From IMG/VR virus record IMGVR_UViG_3300017987_005500: a stretch of DNA of 64,000 nt, one strand, 5' to 3'. The position numbers were made by a program, and so were the translations under genes. This stretch comes from a virus (taxonomy: Duplodnaviria; Heunggongvirae; Uroviricota; Caudoviricetes). Shown here in pieces: positions 52,560-64,000 of the stretch. Position 1 is the first letter of the stretch, and each line of letters begins with the position of its first letter. Under the pieces are notes generated by a model that searched no databases, had not been told where the DNA came from, and was given only the letters and a program-made list of their open reading frames with translations.

Positions 52560-53348
52560 TCAAAGTCCGTACACCATACGAAAAAAGTTTTCCACGAGAT
52601 CTATATTCATTAAATCTTCATTCCCACAATGTTTACAATGGGACATCATATTTAATGCAATCTCGTATTGACCAAACTCTTCTTTATATTTATCGTTTAT
52701 TTTTCTCCTATCAATAGGAGGCAAAGTCATATAAGCATTAACAATGTCAGACCTTTCGCTATAAACGTCAGGTTCAGTTTGCTTCTCAATATCTTGATGA
52801 AATTGTGCGACAGCAAGAGCTTCGGTCAAAACATCTATTTTAGCACCCGGTTGAATAGACTGTCTCTGATACATTTCAAGTTCATCTTTAAGAGTGGGTT
52901 GTTTGATTAATGCAGTAACCCCTTTTGTAACAGGAAGAGGAACCTCATGAGTCTTTCTGAGAATATCATCTTCAGGATATAAAGATGCAGAGAATGTGTC
53001 AGATGCTTTAATAGTAATTGGATATTCTTTTCTACAAGAAGTACAGGTTACATCATAGTTCCTTATTTCTTCATAAGAAATATGATATAACCCGTACAAT
53101 AATGCGTCGCGGTCCTTTGTCGTTACAAACTTTAAAAATGAGTCGAAGTCAGTTATTTCTTTTGGCTTCTTTACCAGAGATTCATAAATAATTTTATTTA
53201 AGTGCTCGGTAATTTTTTGAGGACTCATGAAGCTGCCCTTCATTCTTTCCTCTTCAGCCACGTTAAGACTTCTCAAAGTGAAAGTTTGCTTTGTCTGAGG
53301 AGTCGTTACTTCATACTCAGGATATTTAGCGTTGAATCCTTTAAACAT
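52560..53348 (-). CDS. Baseplate hub/tail assembly chaperone (T4 gp26-like)
   Basis: YPEYEVTTP..TLRSLNVAEE, DRDALL, CTSC, CKHCG...NFF. Confidence 0.75.
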   Translation of the reverse strand: MFKGFNAKYPEYEVTTPQTKQTFTLRSLNVAEEERMKGSFMSPQKITEHLNKIIYESLVKKPKEITDFDSFLKFVTTKDRDALLYGLYHISYEEIRNYDVTCTSCRKEYPITIKASDTFSASLYPEDDILRKTHEVPLPVTKGVTALIKQPTLKDELEMYQRQSIQPGAKIDVLTEALAVAQFHQDIEKQTEPDVYSERSDIVNAYMTLPPIDRRKINDKYKEEFGQYEIALNMMSHCKHCGNEDLMNIDLVENFFRMVYGL

Positions 53349-53410
53349 TTTTGATCTCCTTATATTCGCATTTTAATTAAGTTGTTCATATATTATTTTA
53401 AATCAACTTA

Positions 53411-53833
53411 CTATTTTTTCTTTGCGTCAATTGCACTCTTTTTAGATTGAATTGCTGCTTTAACTTTAGCATTACAATCATTCATACATTTATTACGTTT
53501 GTCACCAATGTTGAAAGTTCCACATTTTTTGTTGCATTGATCAACTGCAGATCTTGCCCATCTATATAACGGCCAATATAGAGGACCTGCAAGGAAGATA
53601 CCTAAAATACTTTTACCGGTTGAAGCTTCTTCTTTATAAACTTCAAAACGATCATTGGCAATTTGCTCAGATTGTTCATCAAGTTTTGCAATTTTACCAT
53701 CCATAATAAAAACTTTAACCTGAGGTGTTGATGCAGTTTTCAAAAATTCAAGCATTTGAAGTTTTGAAGCTTTTGAAAGTTTGCTTTCAACAACCACAGT
53801 GCCTGCATAATGTTTGAGATCTTTATTTTCCAT
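53411..53833 (-). CDS. Cys-rich protein with hydrophobic helix (family member)
   Basis: TM-like segment then CNKKC..CMNDC. Confidence 0.55.
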   Translation of the reverse strand: MENKDLKHYAGTVVVESKLSKASKLQMLEFLKTASTPQVKVFIMDGKIAKLDEQSEQIANDRFEVYKEEASTGKSILGIFLAGPLYWPLYRWARSAVDQCNKKCGTFNIGDKRNKCMNDCNAKVKAAIQSKKSAIDAKKK

Positions 53834-53870
53834 TGTACTTTCTCCTCAATGAGTTTTACATAATTAGTTA

Positions 53871-54587
53871 TTAATATTTCTTACCATATTCCTCAACATT
53901 TGTATAACTTGCAGCAAATGAATCTGCATATGTCTGACATGTGCTAAGAACCCAAGGTTCATGCCATGCATAATCAACATTAAATTCAATCTCTACATCA
54001 AGTCTTCCTACAGTTTCAACGTCACTTGTAAAAAGATCTTGAGGATCTTTTGTTGGAAATACGCCATCATAGCAGGCATAATATTCAACGGTTTTTCCAT
54101 CTGGAGCAGTTGTCCAATAATACATAATGCAAGCATAAGTACTCTTAGAATATCCGCCTCCGTCACTGCCATCTTCAAGACCACTTATACCAGTTCGGTA
54201 ATCTCTCATCATTTTTACCCAACCGTGCATAATGTCTAATAAAGGAGTTTTATTAAATTCAAAGAATTTAACAGATACGGTATTACCGTAATCAATATTT
54301 CCTGGCACTGCCCATTTAATTCCACCTAAACCGGTAAATTCAACTTTATTTAAAGTTCCTCCTGGTGGAGTAACTGAAAGACATGTTGATGCCAATACTG
54401 TAGAAATATCTCCTGTACTTGAAATACCTGAGTTTCCTGTTACAACATACTCAGGTAATTTAACTGGAATTAAGTCAAACCATACATAATGATATCCAGT
54501 AACATAAGGATCAGCAACTCCTATTTTTGTGCCACCAAAACGTCTTGTAGCAACATTTTGACTCATGCTAGCGAATGAAGTTTTCAT
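53871..54587 (-). CDS. Tail tube protein (T4 gp19-like)
   Basis: SVTPPG...VPGNIDYG..VSVKFFE...W...GVFP...VEIEFNVD; downstream of the sheath gene. Confidence 0.75.
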   Translation of the reverse strand: MKTSFASMSQNVATRRFGGTKIGVADPYVTGYHYVWFDLIPVKLPEYVVTGNSGISSTGDISTVLASTCLSVTPPGGTLNKVEFTGLGGIKWAVPGNIDYGNTVSVKFFEFNKTPLLDIMHGWVKMMRDYRTGISGLEDGSDGGGYSKSTYACIMYYWTTAPDGKTVEYYACYDGVFPTKDPQDLFTSDVETVGRLDVEIEFNVDYAWHEPWVLSTCQTYADSFAASYTNVEEYGKKY

Positions 54588-54599
54588 TTAGTTATCCTC

Positions 54600-54782
54600 C
54601 TATTTAATTTCATTCTGTTTAATTTCCTTTGATCGTAATTTATTCTCTTCTTCGCTTTTCTTTTTTTCATCTTTTCCATATATGACTGTATCTGAAGGCA
54701 ATGTTCCTGAATGGATAGAGTCCATAGGAAATATAGATTCTCTTTTCTGTAATTCATATAAGTATTTATCTATAATTGTCAT
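54600..54782 (-). CDS. Small hypothetical protein
   Basis: GAGG SD, motif B upstream. Confidence 0.5.
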   Translation of the reverse strand: MTIIDKYLYELQKRESIFPMDSIHSGTLPSDTVIYGKDEKKKSEEENKLRSKEIKQNEIK

Positions 54783-54876
54783 GTAGCACCTCTAAAGTAA
54801 ACCTAAAGGATTTTAATTTTGTTCTGGTGCTTTACGTTAACTAGCAACTCTTATGGAGGATTTTTCACTTTTGTAC

Positions 54877-54920
54877 AAAAAAATCCCTCAAGATAAATTT
54901 AATTATCTCAAGGGATTTTT
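54877..54920 (-). terminator. Rho-independent (possibly bidirectional) terminator
   Basis: AAAAATCCCT..AGATAA / TTATCT..AGGGATTTTT inverted repeat. Confidence 0.7.
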
Positions 54921-54935
54921 AATGTATTTGAAAAT

Positions 54936-55193
54936 TTAATATGTTGAAGCAGGTGGTTCTTCTCCTGAAGCTGCATTTCTTTTCTGAACAGGTTTTGCTT
55001 TATCATTATCAATTGATAATGATCTAAAGTCTTTAAGACCATTCGCCAATTTACTACTAAGTTTTCGAGCTTTAAGGGCGGATGTTTTGCTTCCTCGACC
55101 TTCTTTACCTTTTTCAGCTTCGTCCATAAAATCTTCAAATGTTTCTCTGAGTGTAGTAAGCATACCATCATATTGTTCATGAAGTTCGCTCAT
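54936..55193 (-). CDS. Histone H1-like Hc1-family nucleoid protein
   Basis: DEAEKGKEGRGSKTSALKARKLSSKLANGLKDFRSLS fits the Hc1 pattern (GNKAAg.RaRk.S.kLek..KefRk.S); AGGAGG SD. Confidence 0.7.
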   Translation of the reverse strand: MSELHEQYDGMLTTLRETFEDFMDEAEKGKEGRGSKTSALKARKLSSKLANGLKDFRSLSIDNDKAKPVQKRNAASGEEPPASTY

Positions 55194-55289
55194 AATAATT
55201 TCCTCCTTGTTTAAATTAATTGTTCAAAATTCCCTTTTATATATTCTCAGGGTCAGTTATTTGTTCTTGTTACATATATAGTTTAGAAA

Positions 55290-55844
55290 TTAATTTAGAT
55301 GTTTGAGTCTTCCAACTTTCACATTCCACTGTGTGCCTTTTTCATCCTGACCGAATTTCTTTAACATATCCAATTCTTGCTTTGCATCTGCTAACATTGC
55401 CTTTGCTTCATTATGTTGTCTTTTAATAATAGAAAGACAATTTCTCTTATTTTTTTCTCTATCATCATATTGACTACAAATTTTATCAGCACTTGTTTTG
55501 TTTAAATAATTAACTATAAATTTTGAAAATTCATATCTGGCATTTAAAATACATATACCTTGTTTTGGATTTTCTTTAAATGTATCCACACTTATAGAAT
55601 CAAAACTTCCATCTTCTTTTCGGTTACCTGTAGGAATTGTAGCAGATGATCCAGAGTGAGGGAATAATCTCTTACAAGTTTCTATTTTTTTCAAATACAT
55701 CTTTTTTGCTTGATTAATCTTTGGATCATCTGGAGCTCCACTTTCTACAACTGCTTTAACAAATGCCCATACCCCTAAAGCAATAAGTCCTCCAATTGCC
55801 CAAGCTTCTATACTTTCCTCAATAACTTCCATATCAGTTTTCAT
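55290..55844 (-). CDS. Protein with N-terminal TM helix and four Cys
   Basis: WAIGGLIALGVWAFV; motif B upstream. Confidence 0.55.
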   Translation of the reverse strand: MKTDMEVIEESIEAWAIGGLIALGVWAFVKAVVESGAPDDPKINQAKKMYLKKIETCKRLFPHSGSSATIPTGNRKEDGSFDSISVDTFKENPKQGICILNARYEFSKFIVNYLNKTSADKICSQYDDREKNKRNCLSIIKRQHNEAKAMLADAKQELDMLKKFGQDEKGTQWNVKVGRLKHLN

Positions 55845-55879
55845 TATTATCTCCTTTTTATATTTGTTCTTTACGACGG

Positions 55880-55917
55880 AAAAAACCCCATATCAGAGTT
55901 TCCTCCAATATGGGGTT
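55880..55917 (-). terminator. Terminator after the tail sheath gene
   Basis: AACCCCATAT/ATATGGGGTT stem with a T-run on the minus strand. Confidence 0.7.
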
Positions 55918-55940
55918 ATTTTTAAAACATTCACCAATTA

Positions 55941-57899
55941 TTATTTGATGAAGAAATTCAATTCAATTTTCTCAACAACTCTTGTAGGTTCAAGAATAAC
56001 ATTTACATGAAATGTTTTACGTTTTCTTTCATATTCAGTTGCTCCAACATCAACGCTAAAGCTATACAGACCTCTTTGTTGTTGAATTCTTTGGAGGAAC
56101 TCAACAATTTCACCTGATACTTTATTCCAAGTAACGGCGTCATTGAGTTCAAATATAAAGAATCTACAGAATTGCTCTAATGCTCTCTTGCAATAAAGAA
56201 CAAGTCTAACAATATTGAGATCTTGAAGAGCACTTGGTTTCGCTTGAGAAGTCAATTGTCCCCACATTACATAACCCTGGTTAAATCTTACAATTGGGTT
56301 AAGTTGTTTCAAGTACATTTGATCTCTTTGACCTTGCTTAGGATTGAATCGAAGTTCCTTAACTGACTCAATGGCGCCTCTATTAAATCCTGCTGCTGCC
56401 CACCAAATCTCTGCAACATTGTCATTTCTTGGAAGCAAGTATGACATATGATACAAGGGTGAAAACCATACGTCCTGACCGGTAAATGGGTCATATACTT
56501 TATTATACTCTTCATACAGAGCAGTAAAATAATTGTTATAAGTATGATATTGAAGACGTCTTGTCATTGCTGCATTAAATGTTGGGTTGTCTCCATTGTC
56601 CAATAATGCAACACAATCTCTTCTTGTCTGAACAAGAGTTGAAATTTGTGTCTTAACGTCAGTTGGGTAACCAGCATCCCAGACAACTGTGAAATAAAAA
56701 TTCTCAGAGTCAAGAATTGAATCATCAATAAGTCCTGCATATGCTTGAGCAAGAACCTGAGTTGCTTCAGCTGTATCAAGATCTCCAGAAGCATCAAGTA
56801 AAGATCCGTCAGAACCTTTTCTAAATGGAACAGGAGTTGATGAAGCAAATGCTGTGGCAATACTTGTGTCAGCTTTCTTAACAAGATATGTCGCATCTGC
56901 AGAATCATCAAAGTTTACAGTGTCACCTTCCCATCCTCTTGAAGCTGCGTCAAGGTCTCTGCCATTATAAATTTCAGCAACCTCTCCGTCAACTCCAGCA
57001 GCAAGTCCTATCCAACCCCAAATCTTATTTCCTCGACTGTCTTTAGCTGAAATCATAAATTCAGCATTTCCAGTTGCAGGACTTGTTTGGTAATCAGTAA
57101 AGTCTTGTTTATTATCTGCAATTTCTGCAGAACCGGGTGTTAAGTCAACAGTTGTAAGACCAATGTCTTTATCATAAATCTTTGCAACTAATTTATAACC
57201 ATCTGTGTACTCTTCATTTGAAAGTTGCATTTGCCATTTAAGCAATCCTGAATAAAGATCAAGAACTTCTCCGATATAAATTGAAGAACCTGTATCATCC
57301 ATTGCTTTTGGATTGAATGAAACTTCAAATGATTCAATAATTTGATCATCACCGTCTGACTGTTTTTCATAAACATCAAGAACATAAACGTCACTGATCA
57401 TTGGATTTGCCACTTCAGTTAAACGAATACCCAATTTATTATAATACTGACCTCGGCCAATTGGATATAAGAAACCTAATGGATAAGTTGGCGCTGAAGA
57501 TTCCAAGTTTGTAATAATTTCAGCTTCTGAATTTAGACTGTCAACATAAGTAAGTTCAATGGCACATGTTGCATCACTTGCGCCCATGACAGCGTCAATT
57601 CTTAAATTTGCATATGCTGCATCATCAGGTAATGGACGCATTACATATATAGCGCCTGATTCTCCAAGGAAATTATAAGCTTCATATAGTCCTTGTCCAT
57701 AACCTTTTCCATACGTAGCAATGTTTGGTTCACCAAATTCAGATACAAGTTCTTGTCGAGAACCTATGAATTTTAGTTTATTGTCTTCACCTTTTTCAGC
57801 GAGAAAACAAATACAACCAATTGTAGAAGGAACTTCAGCTACATATGCTGACAAGTCGATAATTTTAGTATAAACGCCCGGACTGATATTACTTCCCAT
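55941..57899 (-). CDS. Contractile tail sheath protein (T4 gp18-like)
   Basis: SPGVYTKIID, WWAAAGFNRG, LNPIV, LNIVRLV, FELND...W. Confidence 0.93.
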   Translation of the reverse strand: MGSNISPGVYTKIIDLSAYVAEVPSTIGCICFLAEKGEDNKLKFIGSRQELVSEFGEPNIATYGKGYGQGLYEAYNFLGESGAIYVMRPLPDDAAYANLRIDAVMGASDATCAIELTYVDSLNSEAEIITNLESSAPTYPLGFLYPIGRGQYYNKLGIRLTEVANPMISDVYVLDVYEKQSDGDDQIIESFEVSFNPKAMDDTGSSIYIGEVLDLYSGLLKWQMQLSNEEYTDGYKLVAKIYDKDIGLTTVDLTPGSAEIADNKQDFTDYQTSPATGNAEFMISAKDSRGNKIWGWIGLAAGVDGEVAEIYNGRDLDAASRGWEGDTVNFDDSADATYLVKKADTSIATAFASSTPVPFRKGSDGSLLDASGDLDTAEATQVLAQAYAGLIDDSILDSENFYFTVVWDAGYPTDVKTQISTLVQTRRDCVALLDNGDNPTFNAAMTRRLQYHTYNNYFTALYEEYNKVYDPFTGQDVWFSPLYHMSYLLPRNDNVAEIWWAAAGFNRGAIESVKELRFNPKQGQRDQMYLKQLNPIVRFNQGYVMWGQLTSQAKPSALQDLNIVRLVLYCKRALEQFCRFFIFELNDAVTWNKVSGEIVEFLQRIQQQRGLYSFSVDVGATEYERKRKTFHVNVILEPTRVVEKIELNFFIK

Positions 57900-58027
57900 A
57901 ATACTATTCTCCTAATATTTAAGTGTTAAAATGAGAGTCTCTATAAAATTTAGTATTTACTATTCTATCTATAGAGAATAGTACAGTTGACTTCCTTAAG
58001 TAAGTGAATTTGTCTTATAATTAATTT

Positions 58028-58888
58028 TTATACAATAGAAATAACTTTTTGTATAATCTCATTTATATTAGGAATATTATCTATAAACCTAATAACTTTC
58101 CAACCTTCATTTTCAATTAATAATTGTCTTTTCTTATCATATTGTTTATCTTGATGCCAATAACTATCATCATATTCAATTGCTATCATTTCACTTGGAA
58201 TTGCAATATCAATTGAAAAATTTAAACATGGATATTCTAGTTTAGTATCATTAAAATAATTAGAAATTATTTTAAATAATTTAAGTTGAGGTTTGGAAAT
58301 TTTAGTAACTCCAGCTCTAGCAGCTAAAAATCCTCCATTTAACATATAATCTCTTTGGTTGTTTCTAAATTCACTTGTCTTTTGATAACAAGGTGTTCCA
58401 TATTTCACCATACATGTATTTCGAGCCTTTAATAAACTTTCTTCACTATGCTTTTTTCCATAAAATGGATTTTTATCTCCTATTAATTTTTTCCCTCTCT
58501 TAGATAAATTACTCTTTAATTTATTTGCTTTATCAAATCCAAATTGTTGTTCATATGTCTTCCCTTTATTAGGATGAACAGAATTTGGTTGATTCAACCA
58601 ATGTTTATCTCCAAGTTTATTTTTTGAAGACTTGTCTTTGAACTTACTAGAATTACACATACATTTAACAGAGCAATATTTATGATGACCAACTACAAGA
58701 TTAACCCATTTTGTATATTGGTTGCATCCTTTATAGTTTCCATAATTTAAACAAATATCATCACCATCATTCTTTATATATTTATCATAATATTCTTTTG
58801 ATTTAATATTATGAATTCTTAAATGACTTGTTAATGCTTTTAAACTTTTGAATTCTTTTCTGCAAATCTTGCATGTAATTATTTTCAT
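58028..58888 (-). mobile_element. Free-standing homing endonuclease (C2H2 finger, NUMOD3-like repeats, DUF559/Vsr-like PD-(D/E)XK domain)
   Basis: CKICRKEFKSLKALTSHLRIH; NPFYGKKHSEES; IDIAI...IEYDDSYWH...GWKVIRF; start moved to ATG 58888 (GGGAG SD). Confidence 0.8.
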
Positions 58889-58976
58889 TTTAATTTCTCC
58901 CGTTAGAAATATTAAAAATGGGTAAGAGAAATAAAACGGGTATTTCTCAAGGTGGCCAGACCCTGTCCCCATTATT

Positions 58977-59672
58977 TTAAAAATATAAGTACCATACGAA
59001 GATAAGTTGCCTATTTGTATTCTTCACAATGGTTGGAAATGTGACTCTACTAAATAAATGAAACGGTCCTGAACTTCCTCCTGCTGTACTCGGAGATGTG
59101 AAAAGACCCGCTTCACTTAATTGATTTCCATTAGCATCCAAAGACCCAAGCGTAATTACGACTCTTGCAAGTAACCATGAATTTGAATTCTCAGGATCTT
59201 GCTCAAAAGTTATATTGTCGAAGGGATGCTTATAATAATACCCATCATGAAAATCTGCACAAGTGGCGTCCGTCGCATTAATTCCTACTGCATCATCTAA
59301 ATCTGTGTCTTCATTAGTGGGAGATACTGGATCAAAAGGATCCCCAGGAAGTGTTCCGCCAACTCCAACTCCAAACCAACTTATAAATTCATCATGTGTC
59401 GGAGTTATATTTCCATTTGCGGTTTTGGTTGCTCTAACTGCTAACCATTCTCTTCCTAAATATACCACTAAATTATGTTTACCAAGGAGCTTCATTTTAT
59501 CATCATCAGTTGCTTCATATATTTCGACAAATCCTTGGGGTGTTTTTCCGGAAGGACTAGGTTCTCCGTTCAAAGGAACATGATCCATAAGACAATTGTC
59601 CCCATAACGTTCTTCAACGCTGACAACGAGATCCTTATCTCCCTGACAAAGTTCTTTTGTATTTTCATCCAT
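58977..59672 (-). CDS. Tail fibre attachment/baseplate protein
   Basis: ANGNQLSEAGLF...LFSRVTFPTIVK...FVW. Confidence 0.6.
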   Translation of the reverse strand: MDENTKELCQGDKDLVVSVEERYGDNCLMDHVPLNGEPSPSGKTPQGFVEIYEATDDDKMKLLGKHNLVVYLGREWLAVRATKTANGNITPTHDEFISWFGVGVGGTLPGDPFDPVSPTNEDTDLDDAVGINATDATCADFHDGYYYKHPFDNITFEQDPENSNSWLLARVVITLGSLDANGNQLSEAGLFTSPSTAGGSSGPFHLFSRVTFPTIVKNTNRQLIFVWYLYF

Positions 59673-59767
59673 TGGTTAAACATCCTTATTACGGTAGATT
59701 ATTATGTTTATTATTTGTTCTTAAAAAAAACTGAAAACGGTAAATATTTTTAATATAAAAAATATTA

Positions 59768-59782
59768 GTATATATATTAATT
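59768..59782 (+). promoter_or_regulatory. Putative promoter (motif A) for the RAMP operon, divergent from the structural operon
   Basis: GTATATATATTAATT in an AT-rich gap. Confidence 0.5.
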
Positions 59783-59896
59783 ATTAGTATAAGTATTATT
59801 ATATAGTTTATTTTTATTTATTTATTTTTTAAAAGTCTAAACTTATCAAAGCACATAGGTGCTAATAGGATTATTTGGACGAGAAAGGAGTCAATC

Positions 59897-60772
59897 GTGG
59901 CAAAAGCAGCAGATGAAAAGAAAACAGCAGCATCAAAGACAGCACCGAAACGTAAAACAAAAAGTGAACGTGAAAAAGAACTTGACAAAATGGTCAGGGG
60001 ATTTAAACCTTACTATGTTGATGTTACCGGTGAATACATTTCAACAATTTCGGGTTCCCGCCCTGAGGATACTGCTAAACTTATCAGTAAACCCTCAAAG
60101 ACAGTCAATGAAGAGCTTCATAAAATTATGAAAGCTCAGGTTGAACTCTGCCTGCAAAAGGGAGATATTGAAGGAGCAACTGCGGCAGTAGATGCTTTCC
60201 AGAACTCTGGAAATGATTTTTCAAATCCCCTTCATGTTTTTCAACGGGATGAACAATGTGGCAGAAGACCTTTTCAAGGAGCTTATATGTTCTTTGGTGC
60301 CTTCCGAGATACTATAAAGATGGCATATCCCAAAGACTTTAATATCTATATTAAGGTTAAAAATACATCCGGACCAAGTATAAAGCACTTAAGAAAGTCT
60401 GTGCGAGTTGCCCCGGATCATATTTTCCTCATGAAAGATGAGGATAATTACATGGAAGAAAGTGATATTGTTATTGAAAATCAGCACCCTGTTCCTCCAG
60501 ACGTTAAGGGTTTCTCTCGTTTTGAGATTCTCCCAAAAGGAGCTATTGTGAAATACCGACTTGAAGTTCACAGCTGTACTCAATTCAATGCACTTGCTGA
60601 TCTCGAGCTTGTTAAGAAAGTGATTATCCAAAGTGCCCTTCACGGAATTGGCTCACGACGAGCTTCCGGTTATGGCCAATGGAAAGTTAAAAAGATTGAA
60701 TTCCATGAGATGGCAGCAATGGAGGGAAGCGATGGACAAAAAGAGGATGAAGACGTCAGCAAGGCTGCGTAA
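59897..60772 (+). CDS. Stand-alone Cas7/Csm3-group RAMP protein (putative RNA-guided effector, Vipr-like)
   Basis: RAMP motif order: beta1 YVDVTGEYISTISGS; FQRDEQCGRRPFQGAYMFFGAFRD (P.ipgsslkGalR-like); FEILPKGAIVKYRLEV; C-terminal G-loop HGIGSRRASGYGQWKV; GTG start after AAGGAG; no other cas genes in the window. Confidence 0.85.
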   Translation: MAKAADEKKTAASKTAPKRKTKSEREKELDKMVRGFKPYYVDVTGEYISTISGSRPEDTAKLISKPSKTVNEELHKIMKAQVELCLQKGDIEGATAAVDAFQNSGNDFSNPLHVFQRDEQCGRRPFQGAYMFFGAFRDTIKMAYPKDFNIYIKVKNTSGPSIKHLRKSVRVAPDHIFLMKDEDNYMEESDIVIENQHPVPPDVKGFSRFEILPKGAIVKYRLEVHSCTQFNALADLELVKKVIIQSALHGIGSRRASGYGQWKVKKIEFHEMAAMEGSDGQKEDEDVSKAA

Positions 60773-60797
60773 AACAGTAGCGAGAGGAGGAAATATT

Positions 60798-61013
60798 ATG
60801 GCAAAAGGAATGGCCGATATGATGGTCGAAACTGCGGAGAAACTTCTTGATGGAGAGGTTCCTTTAAAGACTGGTGAAGTCGTTGCCAAAGTAGGTAATA
60901 TACATCAGCTTGAACGCAAAAGAGATCATGATGCTCACGATCGTGGATTAAATGATGAAAATCTTAAAGGTTTTCAAAAGATTTGTAAACAATCTACGAA
61001 AAAGAAAAGATAG
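60798..61013 (+). CDS. 71-aa protein co-transcribed with the RAMP gene
   Basis: GAGGAGG SD before ATG 60798; MAKGMADMMVETAEKLL...KKKR. Confidence 0.7.
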   Translation: MAKGMADMMVETAEKLLDGEVPLKTGEVVAKVGNIHQLERKRDHDAHDRGLNDENLKGFQKICKQSTKKKR

Positions 61014-61023
61014 CAAATGGATA

Positions 61024-61050
61024 ATGGGGCGAGTTATGAGATCGCCCCAT
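61024..61050 (+). promoter_or_regulatory. GC-rich hairpin between the ORFs and the array (terminator/processing/leader)
   Basis: ATGGGGCGA-9nt-TCGCCCCAT. Confidence 0.6.
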
Positions 61051-63028
61051 CCATGGAATATAGTTATATTTATTCCTCTTTCATGGTTTTCTTTTATATT
61101 TAATAGAATGCATAATATATCGAATCCGATCCTATGACATTCTATGTTGTATAATAGAATCCGACGCAATCACATTTTATTCACTAAAATGGGTTGAAGT
61201 TTAACCCATTTGCAATGTGAGCTATGATGCAACCGAATGAAATCATATTAAATAATCTAATAATTTAATTTAATTTGGTTAAATATTTTGTTTTGGTGTA
61301 GAATGTTATTCCATATTATTAATTTTAAATTCCTTACGTTATGATATAATTCAATTTTATTTGATTCGATTTACATATGTAATATTATTTTATGGGACAG
61401 CATCCATTTCAGTTGGATAAAATTCGATATACTATAAAACTTAATTGATTAGCACGTAATTCAATATAATTCCATCCGATCCATTTTTAAAGCAATTCGA
61501 CACAGTACGATCCGGTCGAATAAGTTGTAATTCAATCATATGCATTATTTTATTTAATGCTGTGAAGTATAATTGAATAAAATGGTATTCATAATTCAAT
61601 GCGATGATAAAGAATGCGGTCCTGTCTCATTGAGTCGAATAGAATGGAATTACCTTTTAACTTAAACTTATTTCAACATGAACATATTCAATGCGATATA
61701 ATGCACAATATTATCTCATCCTATTCAGTGCGAAACTATTGAATAAGTTCCTATCCAATGAAATTCACAATTAAATAATGTATGGTAGCTTGTTTTGCTA
61801 TGCGATTATATTTCATCCATAAGTTTTACAATGCCAATAAATAAAATATGCAGTAAAATAGGCATTGAGAGCTTTTGATTTTATGTCATTTTAATCAGTT
61901 AAATCGAATGTCATTCATAAAAGAATATTATTCGTTATCGTATGGTGTGATTCAATTTAATGCTATGTTATCAGATTCACAATAATATACAATGCAAAGA
62001 TTTCCTAAGAGATCCAATATAATTCCGTAAATCGTAAGATTCTTTGCGACTCATTTTAATTCGTTATGGCGCCGTTGAATAACATAATATTCTCTATTCT
62101 ATTTTACCGGTTACGTTCCTATTTGGTAAAATGGTATTTTATTTGATTCAATGATATTTACTTTGTAATACAATGCAAATATGTTCAATACTATGCGTTG
62201 CTATGCGATCCTATTCATTATACATTCAATTTAATACAATATTTTATAATTGAATAAGGTCTTATAAACTTTTTAATCTTACCCGTTCCTATTTAATACC
62301 ATTTAATTCTATAAATTATTCAACTGGTTAGTATGGGGTATTATGGTTTGTAATTACGTAAAATTGTATACATACGTAATATTGATCACTGTATAATTGG
62401 GTATAATACAATACAATCTATATTTCACTGAATTGACTTTTAACGTATCATGCAGTATTATACAATTATGTTCAATTAAATAATGTTTTATGTATTATGA
62501 TATGGAATAAAGTAATGTAGAAAGAAATCCTATCTGATAGCATTTTATACAATCTATATTTGAATTATATCCATTATAATACAGTTCAATGCGATACAAT
62601 ATAATTAAATTTCATTAATGATTCAATGTTACCGGTTTCGATACAATTTGTTAAATTATTATAAATAATTTGATCAGATCGAATTTAATCAAGCATTTCT
62701 TCTTAATATCTGATTGAATGCTATTCAATATATGATGGATGCGACGCCATTCCTTTGAATATTATGAAATAGTATATTATTCATTATTTAATTAGGTATA
62801 ACAACTTTCAATTTTATATTATATCATTCGATAAAATGAACGTTTTAATTGAATCTATTTCTATACGAAGCCGTTCCATGCTATTTTATGCGATGTCATA
62901 GATCTTTTAATTAGATGCTATGCATTTCCATTGATTGGTACCGAATTCTTTACATTTCATTCCAATTCTATCGAATAAATATCTTATATATTTTATGTTA
63001 ACTTTTTACTAAATTTAACTAAATAAAT

Positions 63029-63075
63029 AAATAAGGAATATAATAAAATTAACTAAAAAATAACAAACCTTATTT
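63029..63075 (+). repeat. 47-nt non-periodic element, copy 1
   Basis: AAATAAGGAATATAATAAAATTAA...CAAACCTTATTT; near-identical copy at 63551-63597; terminal AAATAAGG/CCTTATTT inverted repeat. Confidence 0.8.
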
Positions 63076-63550
63076 AATATGTTTTCCAATGCAGTTGAGT
63101 AAAATTCTATTCATGATTAGATATAATAATTTTATGTTTAATACAATATGGTCAAATGTCTTAAGATACAATTTTATTTAATAAATGATTCGATTAATTT
63201 GAATTAGGTTCGATCCATTTACATAGTATTGTATGGAATAAAATACATAATTTGATGGGTTAGGATGTGATAGCTTATGGTATTATTGAATACAATTTTA
63301 TTAATAATTTCATATGATAAAACTCCATATTATTCTATTCTGTCGGGTTACATTCGATCAAATGTATAAAATATTCGTAATTGGATTCTTTGGGATTTAT
63401 TAAGTTTCGATCCTTTTACATCTCATTCTATTTAATAAATCTTTAATATGACTCTATTTGATTAGATGGAGTTCATTAGCACCCTTTTTAATCTAATAAA
63501 ATATACTTTATTTTATATTACTGTATGAGTTTGGGTAATATGAAATCAAC

Positions 63551-63597
63551 AAATAAGGAATATAATAAAATTAAAATAAAAATATCAAACCTTATTT
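63551..63597 (+). repeat. 47-nt non-periodic element, copy 2
   Basis: Near-identical to copy 1, 522 nt downstream. Confidence 0.8.
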
Positions 63598-64000
63598 ATA
63601 ATACCATCCTAAAAGATGTAATTTTATAACATTCTATTTAATAAATCTCTATTAGGATTGAATCTGATATCATGCAGTTGGATAAGTTCCAATAAAATTG
63701 TGTTTTATATATCATAGAATATTATTCATTGATATCCGTTATCTTATAATCCTGTGTCATATAATATCATAAACCATTAATACTTTATTATACTGTATTA
63801 TATCTTATCCAATTATATGAAATCTCATCCACATGGTATAAAATGTGATAGCTTATGGTATTATTGGATACAATTTCATTGATCATTGGATACTTTTGGA
63901 TTCATTCCGATGTCTTATGATCCTATTCAATGTTATTTATATTTTAATTACATCACATTGATTATGTTCCGATCCGTTAGAATTAAATTAAATGCGATTC

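What the first reader, a model, noticed from the sequence alone, without database searches (positions are those of the whole stretch)
62904..63712. Guides against competing phages/MGEs (SSB, DNA polymerase A, integrase, excisionase-like)
Seen: 62904-62980 FRDGDVDRPQDAAYK (DUF2815 phage SSB-like motif PLRDGD.DRP.D.AY); 63187-63248 VFPQLYGDYHY and 63441-63506 IFSKGLDPYKDI (resemble phage PolA motifs); 63647-63712 IKHFGFHAI[AGT]HL (tyrosine integrase HxxRH box; the two NN bases give AG-, compatible with Arg). Also 62734-62784 EILSIQEAA (excisionase HTH-like) and 61258-61323 TAA-METLPTIY (spans a start codon). Inference: inter-phage/prophage competition. The integrase case suggests the NN pair is the constrained part and the wobble base N can drift.
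Basis: partly seen in the sequence, partly recalled or inferred. Interest (0 to 1): 0.8.

Follow-up and report, generated by a model that had tools for sequence, protein, structure and literature searches.

The report
Phage VIPR guides targeting rival phages
An uncultured large phage carries a Cas7-like protein and about 54 five-base-periodic RNA guides of the recently described VIPR kind. One guide in this stretch clearly matches the conserved core of a single-strand-DNA-binding protein gene of rival (pro)phages of gut Clostridia, a second probably matches a phage DNA polymerase, and the other four claimed targets are unconfirmed.

Summary
The stretch lies inside a 3.35-kb ORF-free array (window 61053 to about 64406). 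The array is made of n-A-T-N-N pentamers in runs of about 12, separated by 2-nt slips. It sits downstream of a Cas7-fold RAMP gene and a conserved 71-aa ORF. This is the VIPR architecture (bioRxiv 10.64898/2026.04.26.720920) with an AT-type scaffold instead of GGY.

Across 624 pentamers the NN composition fits the reverse complement of codon positions 1-2.

- **Guide 62904-62983:** it matches the PLRDGDxERPDDxAYK core of PF10991 (ex-DUF2815, Enc34-type SSB). More than 116 viral contigs match a relaxed pattern. Three Clostridia/Bacillota MAGs and one metagenome contig match 13 of 15-16 NN, against 8-9 for shuffled guides.
- **Guide 63442-63504:** 10 contiguous NN match the conserved FRNGLDPYKD motif of a phage family-A polymerase. 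Chance is not excluded.
- **The other four** (VFPQLYGDYHY, integrase, excisionase and start-codon guides): no database hit.

No perfect target and no convergence of several guides on one element was found. This scan had already noted the same array. Verdict: a new AT-type variant of a known system, with the interpretation partly supported.

The parts
59897..60772 (+). vipr-like gene: 291-aa stand-alone Cas7-fold RAMP with a C-terminal G-rich loop
   Evidence: Pfam RAMPs E 0.009. PADLOC gives weak Cas7/Cas6/Cmr6 hits. AF2 model pLDDT 87.8. Foldseek PDB top hits are type VII Cas7, Csm3, Cmr4 and Csf2, at E 1e-7 and prob 1.0. 46 homologues among 1.8 bn representatives.
60798..61013 (+). 71-aa accessory (vap-like) ORF
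   Evidence: No family hit. It is conserved next to homologous RAMP genes: 32% identity, E 2e-11, to the 66-aa ORF of L136, and a weaker match in L135.
61017..61054 (+). GC-rich hairpin between the small ORF and the array
   Evidence: RNA fold -20.3 kcal/mol, z -4.4.
61053..64000 (+). Pentamer guide array. It continues to about 64406 beyond the window, as seen in L001, and ends at a strong + strand terminator hairpin at about 64412-64454.
   Evidence: Searches show the n-A-T-N-N pentamers, runs of about 12, and +2-nt slips at 37 of 67 boundaries. The terminator folds at -24.7 kcal/mol, z -7.6. NN composition fits the reverse complement of codon positions 1-2.
62904..62983 (+). Guide A, 16 pentamers. 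The minus-strand reading is [DE][FL]R[DE]G[DE]V[DE]RP[HQ][DE]AAY[KN]. It targets the conserved core of PF10991 (ex-DUF2815) phage SSB genes.
63442..63504 (+). Guide C, 13 pentamers, reading [IM]F[SR][KN]GL[DE]PY[KN][DE][IM][KN]. The probable target is the FRNGLDPYKD motif of a phage family-A DNA polymerase.
63186..63247 (+). Guide B, 12 pentamers, reading V[FL]P[HQ]LYG[DE]Y[HQ]Y[DE]. Target unknown.
   Evidence: 0 exact hits for a 10-NN core in IMG/VR. No match above shuffles in the PolA/SSB loci.
63653..63708 (+). Guide D, 11 pentamers, reading [KN][HQ][FL]G[FL][HQ]A[IM][SR][HQ]L. The integrase target is claimed but not shown.
   Evidence: 0 exact hits for a 10-NN core in IMG/VR. The local scan of H..RH boxes was uninformative.
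62738..62785 (+). Guide E, 9 pentamers, reading [DE][IM]LS[IM][HQ][DE]AA. It has only a generic resemblance to the start of excisionase-type HTH domains.
   Evidence: 0 exact hits. The motif LSIQEAA opens what looks, by eye, like an excisionase-type HTH domain (no family search run) in L051, but only 6/9 NN match there.
61262..61328 (+). Guide F, 13 pentamers, reading [KN]Y[IM][DE]TLPT[IM]Y[KN][KN][KN]. The start-codon reading is unverified.
   Evidence: 0 exact hits.
63028..63078 (+). Conserved non-pentameric element, copy 1. It has a TATAAT-containing core flanked by the inverted repeat AATAAGG/CCTTATT.
63550..63600 (+). Conserved non-pentameric element, copy 2.
   Evidence: These are the only two copies in the window and in L001.

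Best explanation
The stretch is part of a VIPR-type guide array of a large uncultured myovirus.

**Inferred by analogy with published VIPR work.** The array is transcribed on the + strand, from the RAMP/small-ORF operon to the terminator. The Cas7-like Vipr protein polymerises on the RNA and holds each n-A-U triad. The two variable bases of each pentamer are left free to pair with a target in which every third base is skipped.

**Shown here.** The variable dinucleotides of the array, taken as a whole, are the reverse complement of codon positions 1 and 2. The guides are therefore antisense images of protein-coding sequence, with the wobble position unread. Guide 62904-62983 reads the most conserved motif of the PF10991 (DUF2815/Enc34-type) single-strand-DNA-binding protein of phages and prophages of gut Clostridia/Bacillota.

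**Probable.** Guide 63442-63504 reads a conserved motif, between motifs A and B, of a phage-type family-A DNA polymerase.

**Inferred, not tested.** Binding would silence the replication module of a competing phage or prophage during infection.

The other four guides named in the finding have no assigned target.
For: **Architecture**
- The RAMP protein has a Cas7 fold.
- The adjacent small ORF is conserved.
- The array is an ORF-free pentamer array bounded by a hairpin and a terminator.
- Homologous loci L134 and L136 carry the same n-R-T-N-N pentamers.
- Published VIPR features: Vipr RAMP + vap + YNNGG vrRNAs, the 1-nt skip rule, wobble alignment, and targets in competing phages or satellites.

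**Coding origin of the guides**
- Over 624 NN, the log-likelihood is -1658 for reverse-complement codon positions 1-2. It is -1752 for forward positions 1-2, -1756 to -1840 for the other registers, and -1687 for a mononucleotide model.
- 45 of 53 guides favour the antisense orientation, sign test 2e-7.

**Guide A**
All hits lie in frame on PLRDGDxERPDDxAYK.
- Three ORFs sampled from these hits are PF10991 at E 1e-76 to 1e-79.
- A 26-base pattern hits 3 Bacillota/Clostridia MAG contigs in 596 Gb and 1 JGI metagenome contig, against an expectation of about 3e-4. Each matches 13/16 NN, or 28/30 informative bases without the boundary pentamer.
- Shuffled guides reach 8-9.
- The mismatches fall only on positions that vary within the family.

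**Guide C**
- Its 20-base core has a single IMG/VR hit. The hit is in frame in a PF00476 polymerase at VFRNGLDPYKDFG.
- That motif is conserved in the subfamily.
- It is homologous to VFxxGxDIYCASASQMF of the polymerases that sit next to PF10991 genes.

**Self-targeting**
- No self-target was found in the 72-kb contig.
Against: - No perfect (15/15) target was found in IMG/VR, in 185k species genomes, in JGI metagenomes, or among the best 120 of 3826 PF10991 proteins.
- One mismatch of guide A (CA where the family has GA = Asp in 97 of 110) lies on a nearly invariant residue.
- No second guide matches the three MAG contigs, L137 or L124 convincingly: only one-NN excesses over shuffle maxima (7-8 vs 6-7) in L132, L124 and L137. 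The convergence of several guides on one element, reported for SUSP1 and P. fulva, is therefore not shown.
- Guide C's polymerase hit is 10/13 NN on a 56% GC contig. A hit of similar quality (11/13 NN) occurs at the C-terminus of an ArsR-like regulator in 1 of 401 Clostridia genomes. Chance matches at this level therefore exist for AT-rich guides.
- The scaffold triad has no G, and no conserved 3' tail per guide was seen, unlike the characterised type II vrRNAs.
- Transcription, RNP formation and DNA binding are all untested.
Confidence: 0.74

Rival explanations
1. The array is a VIPR array, but the guides in this stretch mostly regulate host or other non-MGE genes. Guide C would then act on a host ArsR-type regulator. 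The SSB match would reflect a prophage-borne gene treated as part of the host, not inter-phage competition.
For: The best mismatch-tolerant hit of guide C in 401 Clostridia genomes is an ArsR-like regulator at 11/13 NN. Four of the six guides have no MGE hit.
Against: The ArsR hit is within chance expectation (about 0.2-1 for that search) and lies on a non-conserved C-terminus. PF10991 genes lie next to a phage-type PolA in viral contigs and MAG contigs.
Confidence: 0.12
2. This clade reads RNA rather than double-stranded DNA. The guides pair with sense transcripts (mRNA) of the targeted genes and block or destroy them, as type III/VII Cas7 backbones do.
For: 45 of 53 guides are antisense to the coding strand, and the same bias is seen in two homologous arrays. 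Published type II VIPR targets lie on both strands. The nearest solved folds are RNA-targeting Cas7, Csm3 and Cmr4.
Against: Published VIPRs bind dsDNA and silence from either strand. A strand bias could equally come from how guides are made or selected. No nuclease or effector gene lies beside the RAMP.
Confidence: 0.1
3. The peptide-like readings are over-interpretation. The array would instead be a protein-binding or structural repeat: either a TRAP-like ring binding 12 NAU triplets separated by 2-nt spacers, or DNA phased at 62/6 = 10.3 bp. In that case the NN carry no target information.
For: Triads spaced by 2 nt in runs of about 12 resemble TRAP sites, and 62-nt units equal six helical turns. 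Four of the six claimed targets have no hit.
Against: The NN composition fits codon positions 1-2 in one orientation and one register only. Guide A shares 26 specified bases with real PF10991 genes, against an expectation of 3e-4. The adjacent protein has a Cas7 fold, as in VIPR.
Confidence: 0.04

Closest known systems
VIPR systems (Vipr RAMP + vap + vrRNA; bioRxiv 10.64898/2026.04.26.720920 and 10.64898/2026.10.15.759431)
   Same: It is phage-encoded. It has a single stand-alone Cas7-like RAMP and a small accessory gene. Its guides are 5-nt repeats in which a conserved triad alternates with a variable NN. Targets are read with one skipped base aligned to the codon wobble, and they lie on conserved motifs of genes of competing phages.
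   Different: The triad is n-A/G-U (A 73% here) instead of GGY. The published variants NNNGG, YNNNG and NNNNG all keep a G. About 54 guides lie head to tail with 2-nt 'aY' linkers and no recognisable conserved 3' tail, against 1-4 tailed vrRNAs of about 100 nt in SUSP1. The guides are almost all antisense to the coding strand, whereas published targets lie on both strands. I could not place the protein in the published seven-type tree.
Cas7 backbone of class 1 CRISPR effectors (Csm3/Cmr4, type VII Cas7, Csf2)
   Same: The RRM/RAMP fold with a G-rich loop is shared (Foldseek E 1e-7). So is the periodic guide geometry with bases excluded from pairing.
   Different: The period is 5 with 2 read bases, instead of 6 with 5 read bases. 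There is no repeat-spacer CRISPR array. No cas1/2/5/6/8/10 gene was seen among the neighbouring ORFs scanned, 52560-61013.
TRAP-type ring proteins binding spaced triplets (Bacillus trp attenuation protein), from my own knowledge
   Same: Runs of about 11-12 triplets are separated by 2-nt spacers.
   Different: In TRAP the spacers carry no information and the protein has a different fold. Here the 'spacers' carry codon-like information and the protein has a Cas7 fold.

Membership tests
VIPR system | Stand-alone RAMP (Vipr) protein with an RRM core and a G-rich loop | tested here: met
   AF2 pLDDT 87.8. The Foldseek PDB search gives 180 hits at E<=0.001, the top ones Cas7/Csm3/Cmr4. Pfam RAMPs is weak, E 0.009.
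VIPR system | The protein belongs to the Vipr clade, separate from Cas5/6/7, in the published phylogeny | not tested
   No reference Vipr sequence was available through the tools. Only 46 homologues of unknown type were found.
VIPR system | Minimal locus: vipr plus a small accessory gene (vap), with no other cas genes | tested here: met
   The 71-aa ORF is conserved beside homologues. The neighbours are phage structural genes and a homing-endonuclease-like gene. Homology to vap1-6 was not tested.
VIPR system | vrRNA made of tandem pentamers in which a conserved triad (GGY or a related consensus) alternates with a hypervariable NN | tested here: inconclusive
   The pentamer grammar is met. The triad, however, is n-A-U in this phage and n-R-U in homologues, and it lacks the G present in every published consensus.
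VIPR system | Conserved structured 3' tail after each repeat tract | tested here: not met
   The units abut with 2-nt linkers. The terminal pentamers are only weakly biased, TC in 14 of 53. There was no Rfam hit. The paper describes tail-less 'staggered' arrays for other types.
VIPR system | Targets recognised by the 1-nt skip rule, with the skip base on the codon wobble | tested here: met
   Composition test. Guide A matches PF10991 genes. The skip base is unrelated to the scaffold bases. Other skip lengths were not tested on an unbiased database.
VIPR system | vrRNAs are expressed, co-purify with Vipr and bind dsDNA | not testable with these tools
   This needs sRNA-seq, pull-down and binding assays.
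Target of guide A: PF10991 (DUF2815 / Enc34 ssDNA-binding protein) | The matched ORFs belong to the family and the match lies on its conserved core | tested here: met
   Pfam E 4e-79, 9e-77 and 7e-76. P and L, which the search pattern did not constrain, are conserved in 109 of 110 windows. All 120 best of the 3826 relatives listed carry PF10991 and the LRDGDxERPDD core.
Target of guide C: family-A DNA polymerase | The matched ORF is a PolA and the match lies on a conserved motif | tested here: met
   PF00476 E 1.8e-13. The motif VFRNGLDPYKDF[GA] recurs in 27 homologues. That this is the guide's real target is inconclusive.
Target of guide D: tyrosine recombinase box II (HxxRH) | The guide matches a real integrase gene at the box | tested here: inconclusive
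   0 exact hits for the 10-NN core in IMG/VR. Nothing was found among the few integrases in the fetched loci. No mismatch-tolerant search of a large collection was possible.

The most novel reading that the evidence does not exclude
This AT-scaffold VIPR clade may work differently from the characterised type II systems. Nearly all of its guides are antisense to the coding strand (45 of 53 here, with the same bias in two relatives). They are packed as about 54 tail-less units in one transcript. This could mean that the complex reads sense RNA rather than dsDNA. It could also mean that new guides are written from transcripts of rival elements, which would be a first hint of a VIPR guide-acquisition route.
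Probability: 0.15. Interest if true: 0.8.

Novelty: new variant of a known kind. Interest (0 to 1): 0.45.

Why it matters
VIPR was described only in 2026, and natural targets are known for a few Enterobacteria and Pseudomonas clades.

- **Wider range.** The system appears here in a large uncultured phage, probably of gut Clostridia (inferred only from where guide A's best targets lie). It has a G-free scaffold and an unusually large array of about 54 guides.
- **A testable target.** One guide can be tied to a concrete, highly conserved target: the ssDNA-binding protein of a widespread (pro)phage replication module. This is a ready-made natural guide-target pair for testing whether the 1-nt-skip code holds outside type II.
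- **An open question.** The strand bias raises whether this clade reads DNA or RNA, and how its guides arise.
- **A caution for annotators.** For AT-rich guides, matches of 80-88% of informative bases occur by chance in gigabase-scale searches. The published 0.8 threshold therefore needs scrambled-guide controls.

Tried and rejected
- **Tandem repeats and Rfam:** no ordinary repeat family and no known RNA family in the array.
- **Close relatives of the RAMP protein:** none in IMG/VR or GenBank phages. In the 5.8-bn protein set it finds only itself.
- **Array variation between samples:** the three other contigs carrying the protein (L001-L003) are 100% identical, so there is no variation to exploit.
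- **Exact 10-NN core of guide A, including its V and Q/H codons:** one unrelated hit in a high-GC contig, judged chance.
- **All 53 guides against about 1.1 Mb of fetched PF10991/PolA loci**, at DNA and amino-acid level with shuffled controls: only guides A and C (C vs L124, 10/12 vs ≤6-8) stand out clearly; a few other guides exceed their shuffle maxima by one match.
- **Guide C, 11-NN pattern, in JGI metagenomes:** 0 hits.
- **Guide C, 13 NN with up to 3 mismatches, in 401 Clostridia genomes:** only an ArsR-like C-terminus, judged chance.
- **A perfect guide A target among PF10991 proteins:** the best 120 of 3826 reach at most 13/15.
- **Self-targeting in the 72-kb contig:** none above shuffles, and no PF10991 gene there.
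- **TRAP-like and DNA-phasing ideas:** considered early and set aside after the codon-composition test.
- **Sigma-70 promoter scan of the array:** uninformative in this AT-rich DNA.
Full report
**What is there.** The window is a 30% GC myovirus-like contig. It carries a tail sheath, baseplate genes and a homing-endonuclease-like gene.

From about 61053 to the window end there are no ORFs. The DNA there shows strong 5-nt periodicity:
- Identity at lag 5 is 0.42, against about 0.29 at other lags. Further peaks lie at lags 62 and 124.
- A sharp spectral line lies at period 5.157 = 62/12.
- A phase-tracking model gives the pentamer n-A-T-N-N, with A 0.73 and T 0.87.
- The pentamers lie in runs of mostly 9-13, and the commonest boundary is a +2-nt slip written 'aY'.

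The same DNA is part of a 163-kb contig (L001), which shows that the array runs to about window 64406. It ends at a strong + strand terminator hairpin (-24.7 kcal/mol, z -7.6), and a GC hairpin precedes it. The periodicity occurs nowhere else in the 72-kb genome record.

**The neighbouring genes.**
- Directly upstream, on the same strand, lies a 291-aa protein with a weak RAMP Pfam hit. Its AlphaFold model (pLDDT 87.8) matches Cas7-type subunits (type VII Cas7, Csm3, Cmr4, Csf2) at Foldseek E about 1e-7 and probability 1.0.
- A 71-aa ORF follows. It has no family hit but is conserved next to homologous RAMP genes (32% identity, E 2e-11).
- The RAMP protein has 46 relatives among 1.8 billion representatives. 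Two of three neighbourhoods that I fetched carry pentamer tracts with the same profile, n-R(A>G)-T-N-N.

**The known system.** As published, VIPR has these features:
- a phage-encoded stand-alone RAMP (Vipr), a small vap gene, and vrRNAs of YNNGG pentamers;
- NN dinucleotides that pair with dsDNA under a 1-nt skip rule;
- skipped bases that fall on codon wobble positions;
- natural targets on conserved motifs of competing phages and satellites.

The locus here has that architecture, with three differences:
- The scaffold triad has no G.
- About 54 units abut without a recognisable 3' tail.
- The guides are strongly strand-biased (see below).

All six peptides are reproduced by taking the reverse complement of each unit and reading NN plus a third base. 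The third base is the invariant scaffold A, so only dinucleotides carry information.

That the decoding is meaningful follows from a parameter-free test over 624 NN:

| Model | Log-likelihood |
|---|---|
| Reverse complement of codon positions 1-2 (from the phage's own genes) | -1658 |
| Mononucleotide model | -1687 |
| Forward orientation, positions 1-2 | -1752 |
| Other registers | -1756 to -1840 |

45 of 53 guides individually favour the antisense orientation (p = 2e-7). The same preference is seen in two homologous arrays.

**Guide A (62904-62983).** Its reading is [DE][FL]R[DE]G[DE]V[DE]RP[HQ][DE]AAY[KN].
- A strict 10-NN core gave one unrelated hit in IMG/VR.
- All 116 matches found in the returned loci lie in frame on PLRDGDxERPDDxAYK. 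Three ORFs sampled from these hits are PF10991, formerly DUF2815 and now Enc34 ssDNA-binding protein, at E 1e-76 to 1e-79.
- A 26-base pattern that also fixes TT-Leu and GT-Val found three contigs of Bacillota/Clostridia MAGs among 185,579 species genomes, and one JGI metagenome contig. The chance expectation is about 3e-4.
- Each of these matches 13 of 16 NN. That is 13 of 15, or 28 of 30 informative bases, without the boundary pentamer.
- Shuffled versions of the guide reach 8-9 in the same DNA.
- The mismatches fall on positions that vary within the family. The target's third bases show no relation to any scaffold base.
- PF10991 has 3826 relatives sharing this region in the 5.8-bn protein set. 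Many come from gut Oscillospirales-type records, for example one cluster named from Ruminococcus bicirculans and seen on 965 contigs. The best 120 reach at most 13/15 at the amino-acid level. The exact target is therefore unsampled, or the guide is imperfect.

**Guide C (63442-63504).** Its reading is [IM]F[SR][KN]GL[DE]PY[KN][DE][IM][KN].
- The 10-NN core has a single IMG/VR hit. It lies in frame in a 724-residue open frame (688-aa protein, P0047) that is PF00476 (E 1.8e-13), at VFRNGLDPYKDFG between polymerase motifs A and B.
- That motif is conserved in 27 relatives.
- It is homologous to VFxxGxDIYCASASQMF in the polymerases encoded next to PF10991 genes.
- Against this, the match is 10/13 NN on a 56% GC contig, and an 11-NN pattern found nothing in JGI metagenomes.
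- A mismatch-tolerant search of 401 Clostridia genomes returned an 11/13 match at the C-terminus of an ArsR-like regulator, about what chance predicts.
- Calibration: five other 18-20-base cores gave 0, 0, 0, 0 and 1 chance hit.
- I rate the polymerase assignment at roughly 60%.

**Guides B, D, E and F.** The cores of 63186-63247, 63653-63708, 62738-62785 and 61262-61328 gave no exact hit in IMG/VR. They gave nothing above shuffled controls in about 1.1 Mb of fetched loci.
- The excisionase-like reading is a generic motif. LSIQEAA does open what looks by eye like an excisionase-type HTH domain in L051 (no family search run), but only 6/9 NN match there.
- The integrase reading crosses two unit boundaries and has no support.

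**What is not shown.** No other guide matches the contigs hit by A or C convincingly (only one-NN excesses over shuffle maxima). Convergence of several guides on one rival element is therefore not demonstrated. No self-target and no PF10991 gene occur in the 72-kb record, which CheckV rates 23% complete. Expression, RNP formation and binding are inferred from the published systems only.

**Verdict.** One target (the SSB) is well supported, one (PolA) is plausible, and four are unverified. The system is a VIPR variant with an AT-type scaffold, a very large tail-less array and a marked antisense bias. This scan had already recognised the array as VIPR-like on the same DNA. What I add is the SSB and PolA target evidence, the chance calibration and the orientation statistics.

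Noticed in passing
window 63028-63078 and 63550-63600: Two copies of a ~50-nt element that is not pentameric interrupt the array. Its 23-nt core is identical in both copies. It contains TATAAT and is flanked by the inverted repeat AATAAGG/CCTTATT. It could be an internal promoter or a processing/punctuation site that splits the array into sub-arrays.
   Followed up: partly
L134:3030-3570; L136:90-520 and 1650-2440: Homologous RAMP loci from 41-43% GC contigs carry pentamers n-R(A>G)-T-N-N. Their NN composition also best fits antisense codon positions 1-2. The G-poor scaffold and the strand bias therefore look clade-wide, not a side effect of this phage's low GC.
   Followed up: partly
L133 (G396:C113:1562-1599): Guide C matches the C-terminal codons of an ArsR/SmtB-like regulator (IFRKGLEHINEIK) at 11/13 NN in a 31% GC Clostridia genome. 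This is probably chance, but it shows that the published 0.8 identity threshold is not safe for AT-rich guides without scrambled controls.
   Followed up: partly
window 58028-58972 (-): A 314-aa ORF with a C2H2 zinc finger, NUMOD3 and a DUF559/MTES_1575 endonuclease domain lies between the tail-sheath gene and a virion protein gene, next to the VIPR locus. It looks like a free-standing homing endonuclease.
   Followed up: no
G000 / L001: The 72-kb genome record is rated 23% complete, and the same DNA lies on a 163-kb contig. The phage is probably a jumbo phage. In both assemblies the array sits at or near a contig end, so assembly may break in or near it.
   Followed up: no
P0074: One PF10991 relative is a 300-aa fusion that carries two further Pfam domains (PF21841, PF28329) in front of the SSB domain.
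   Followed up: no
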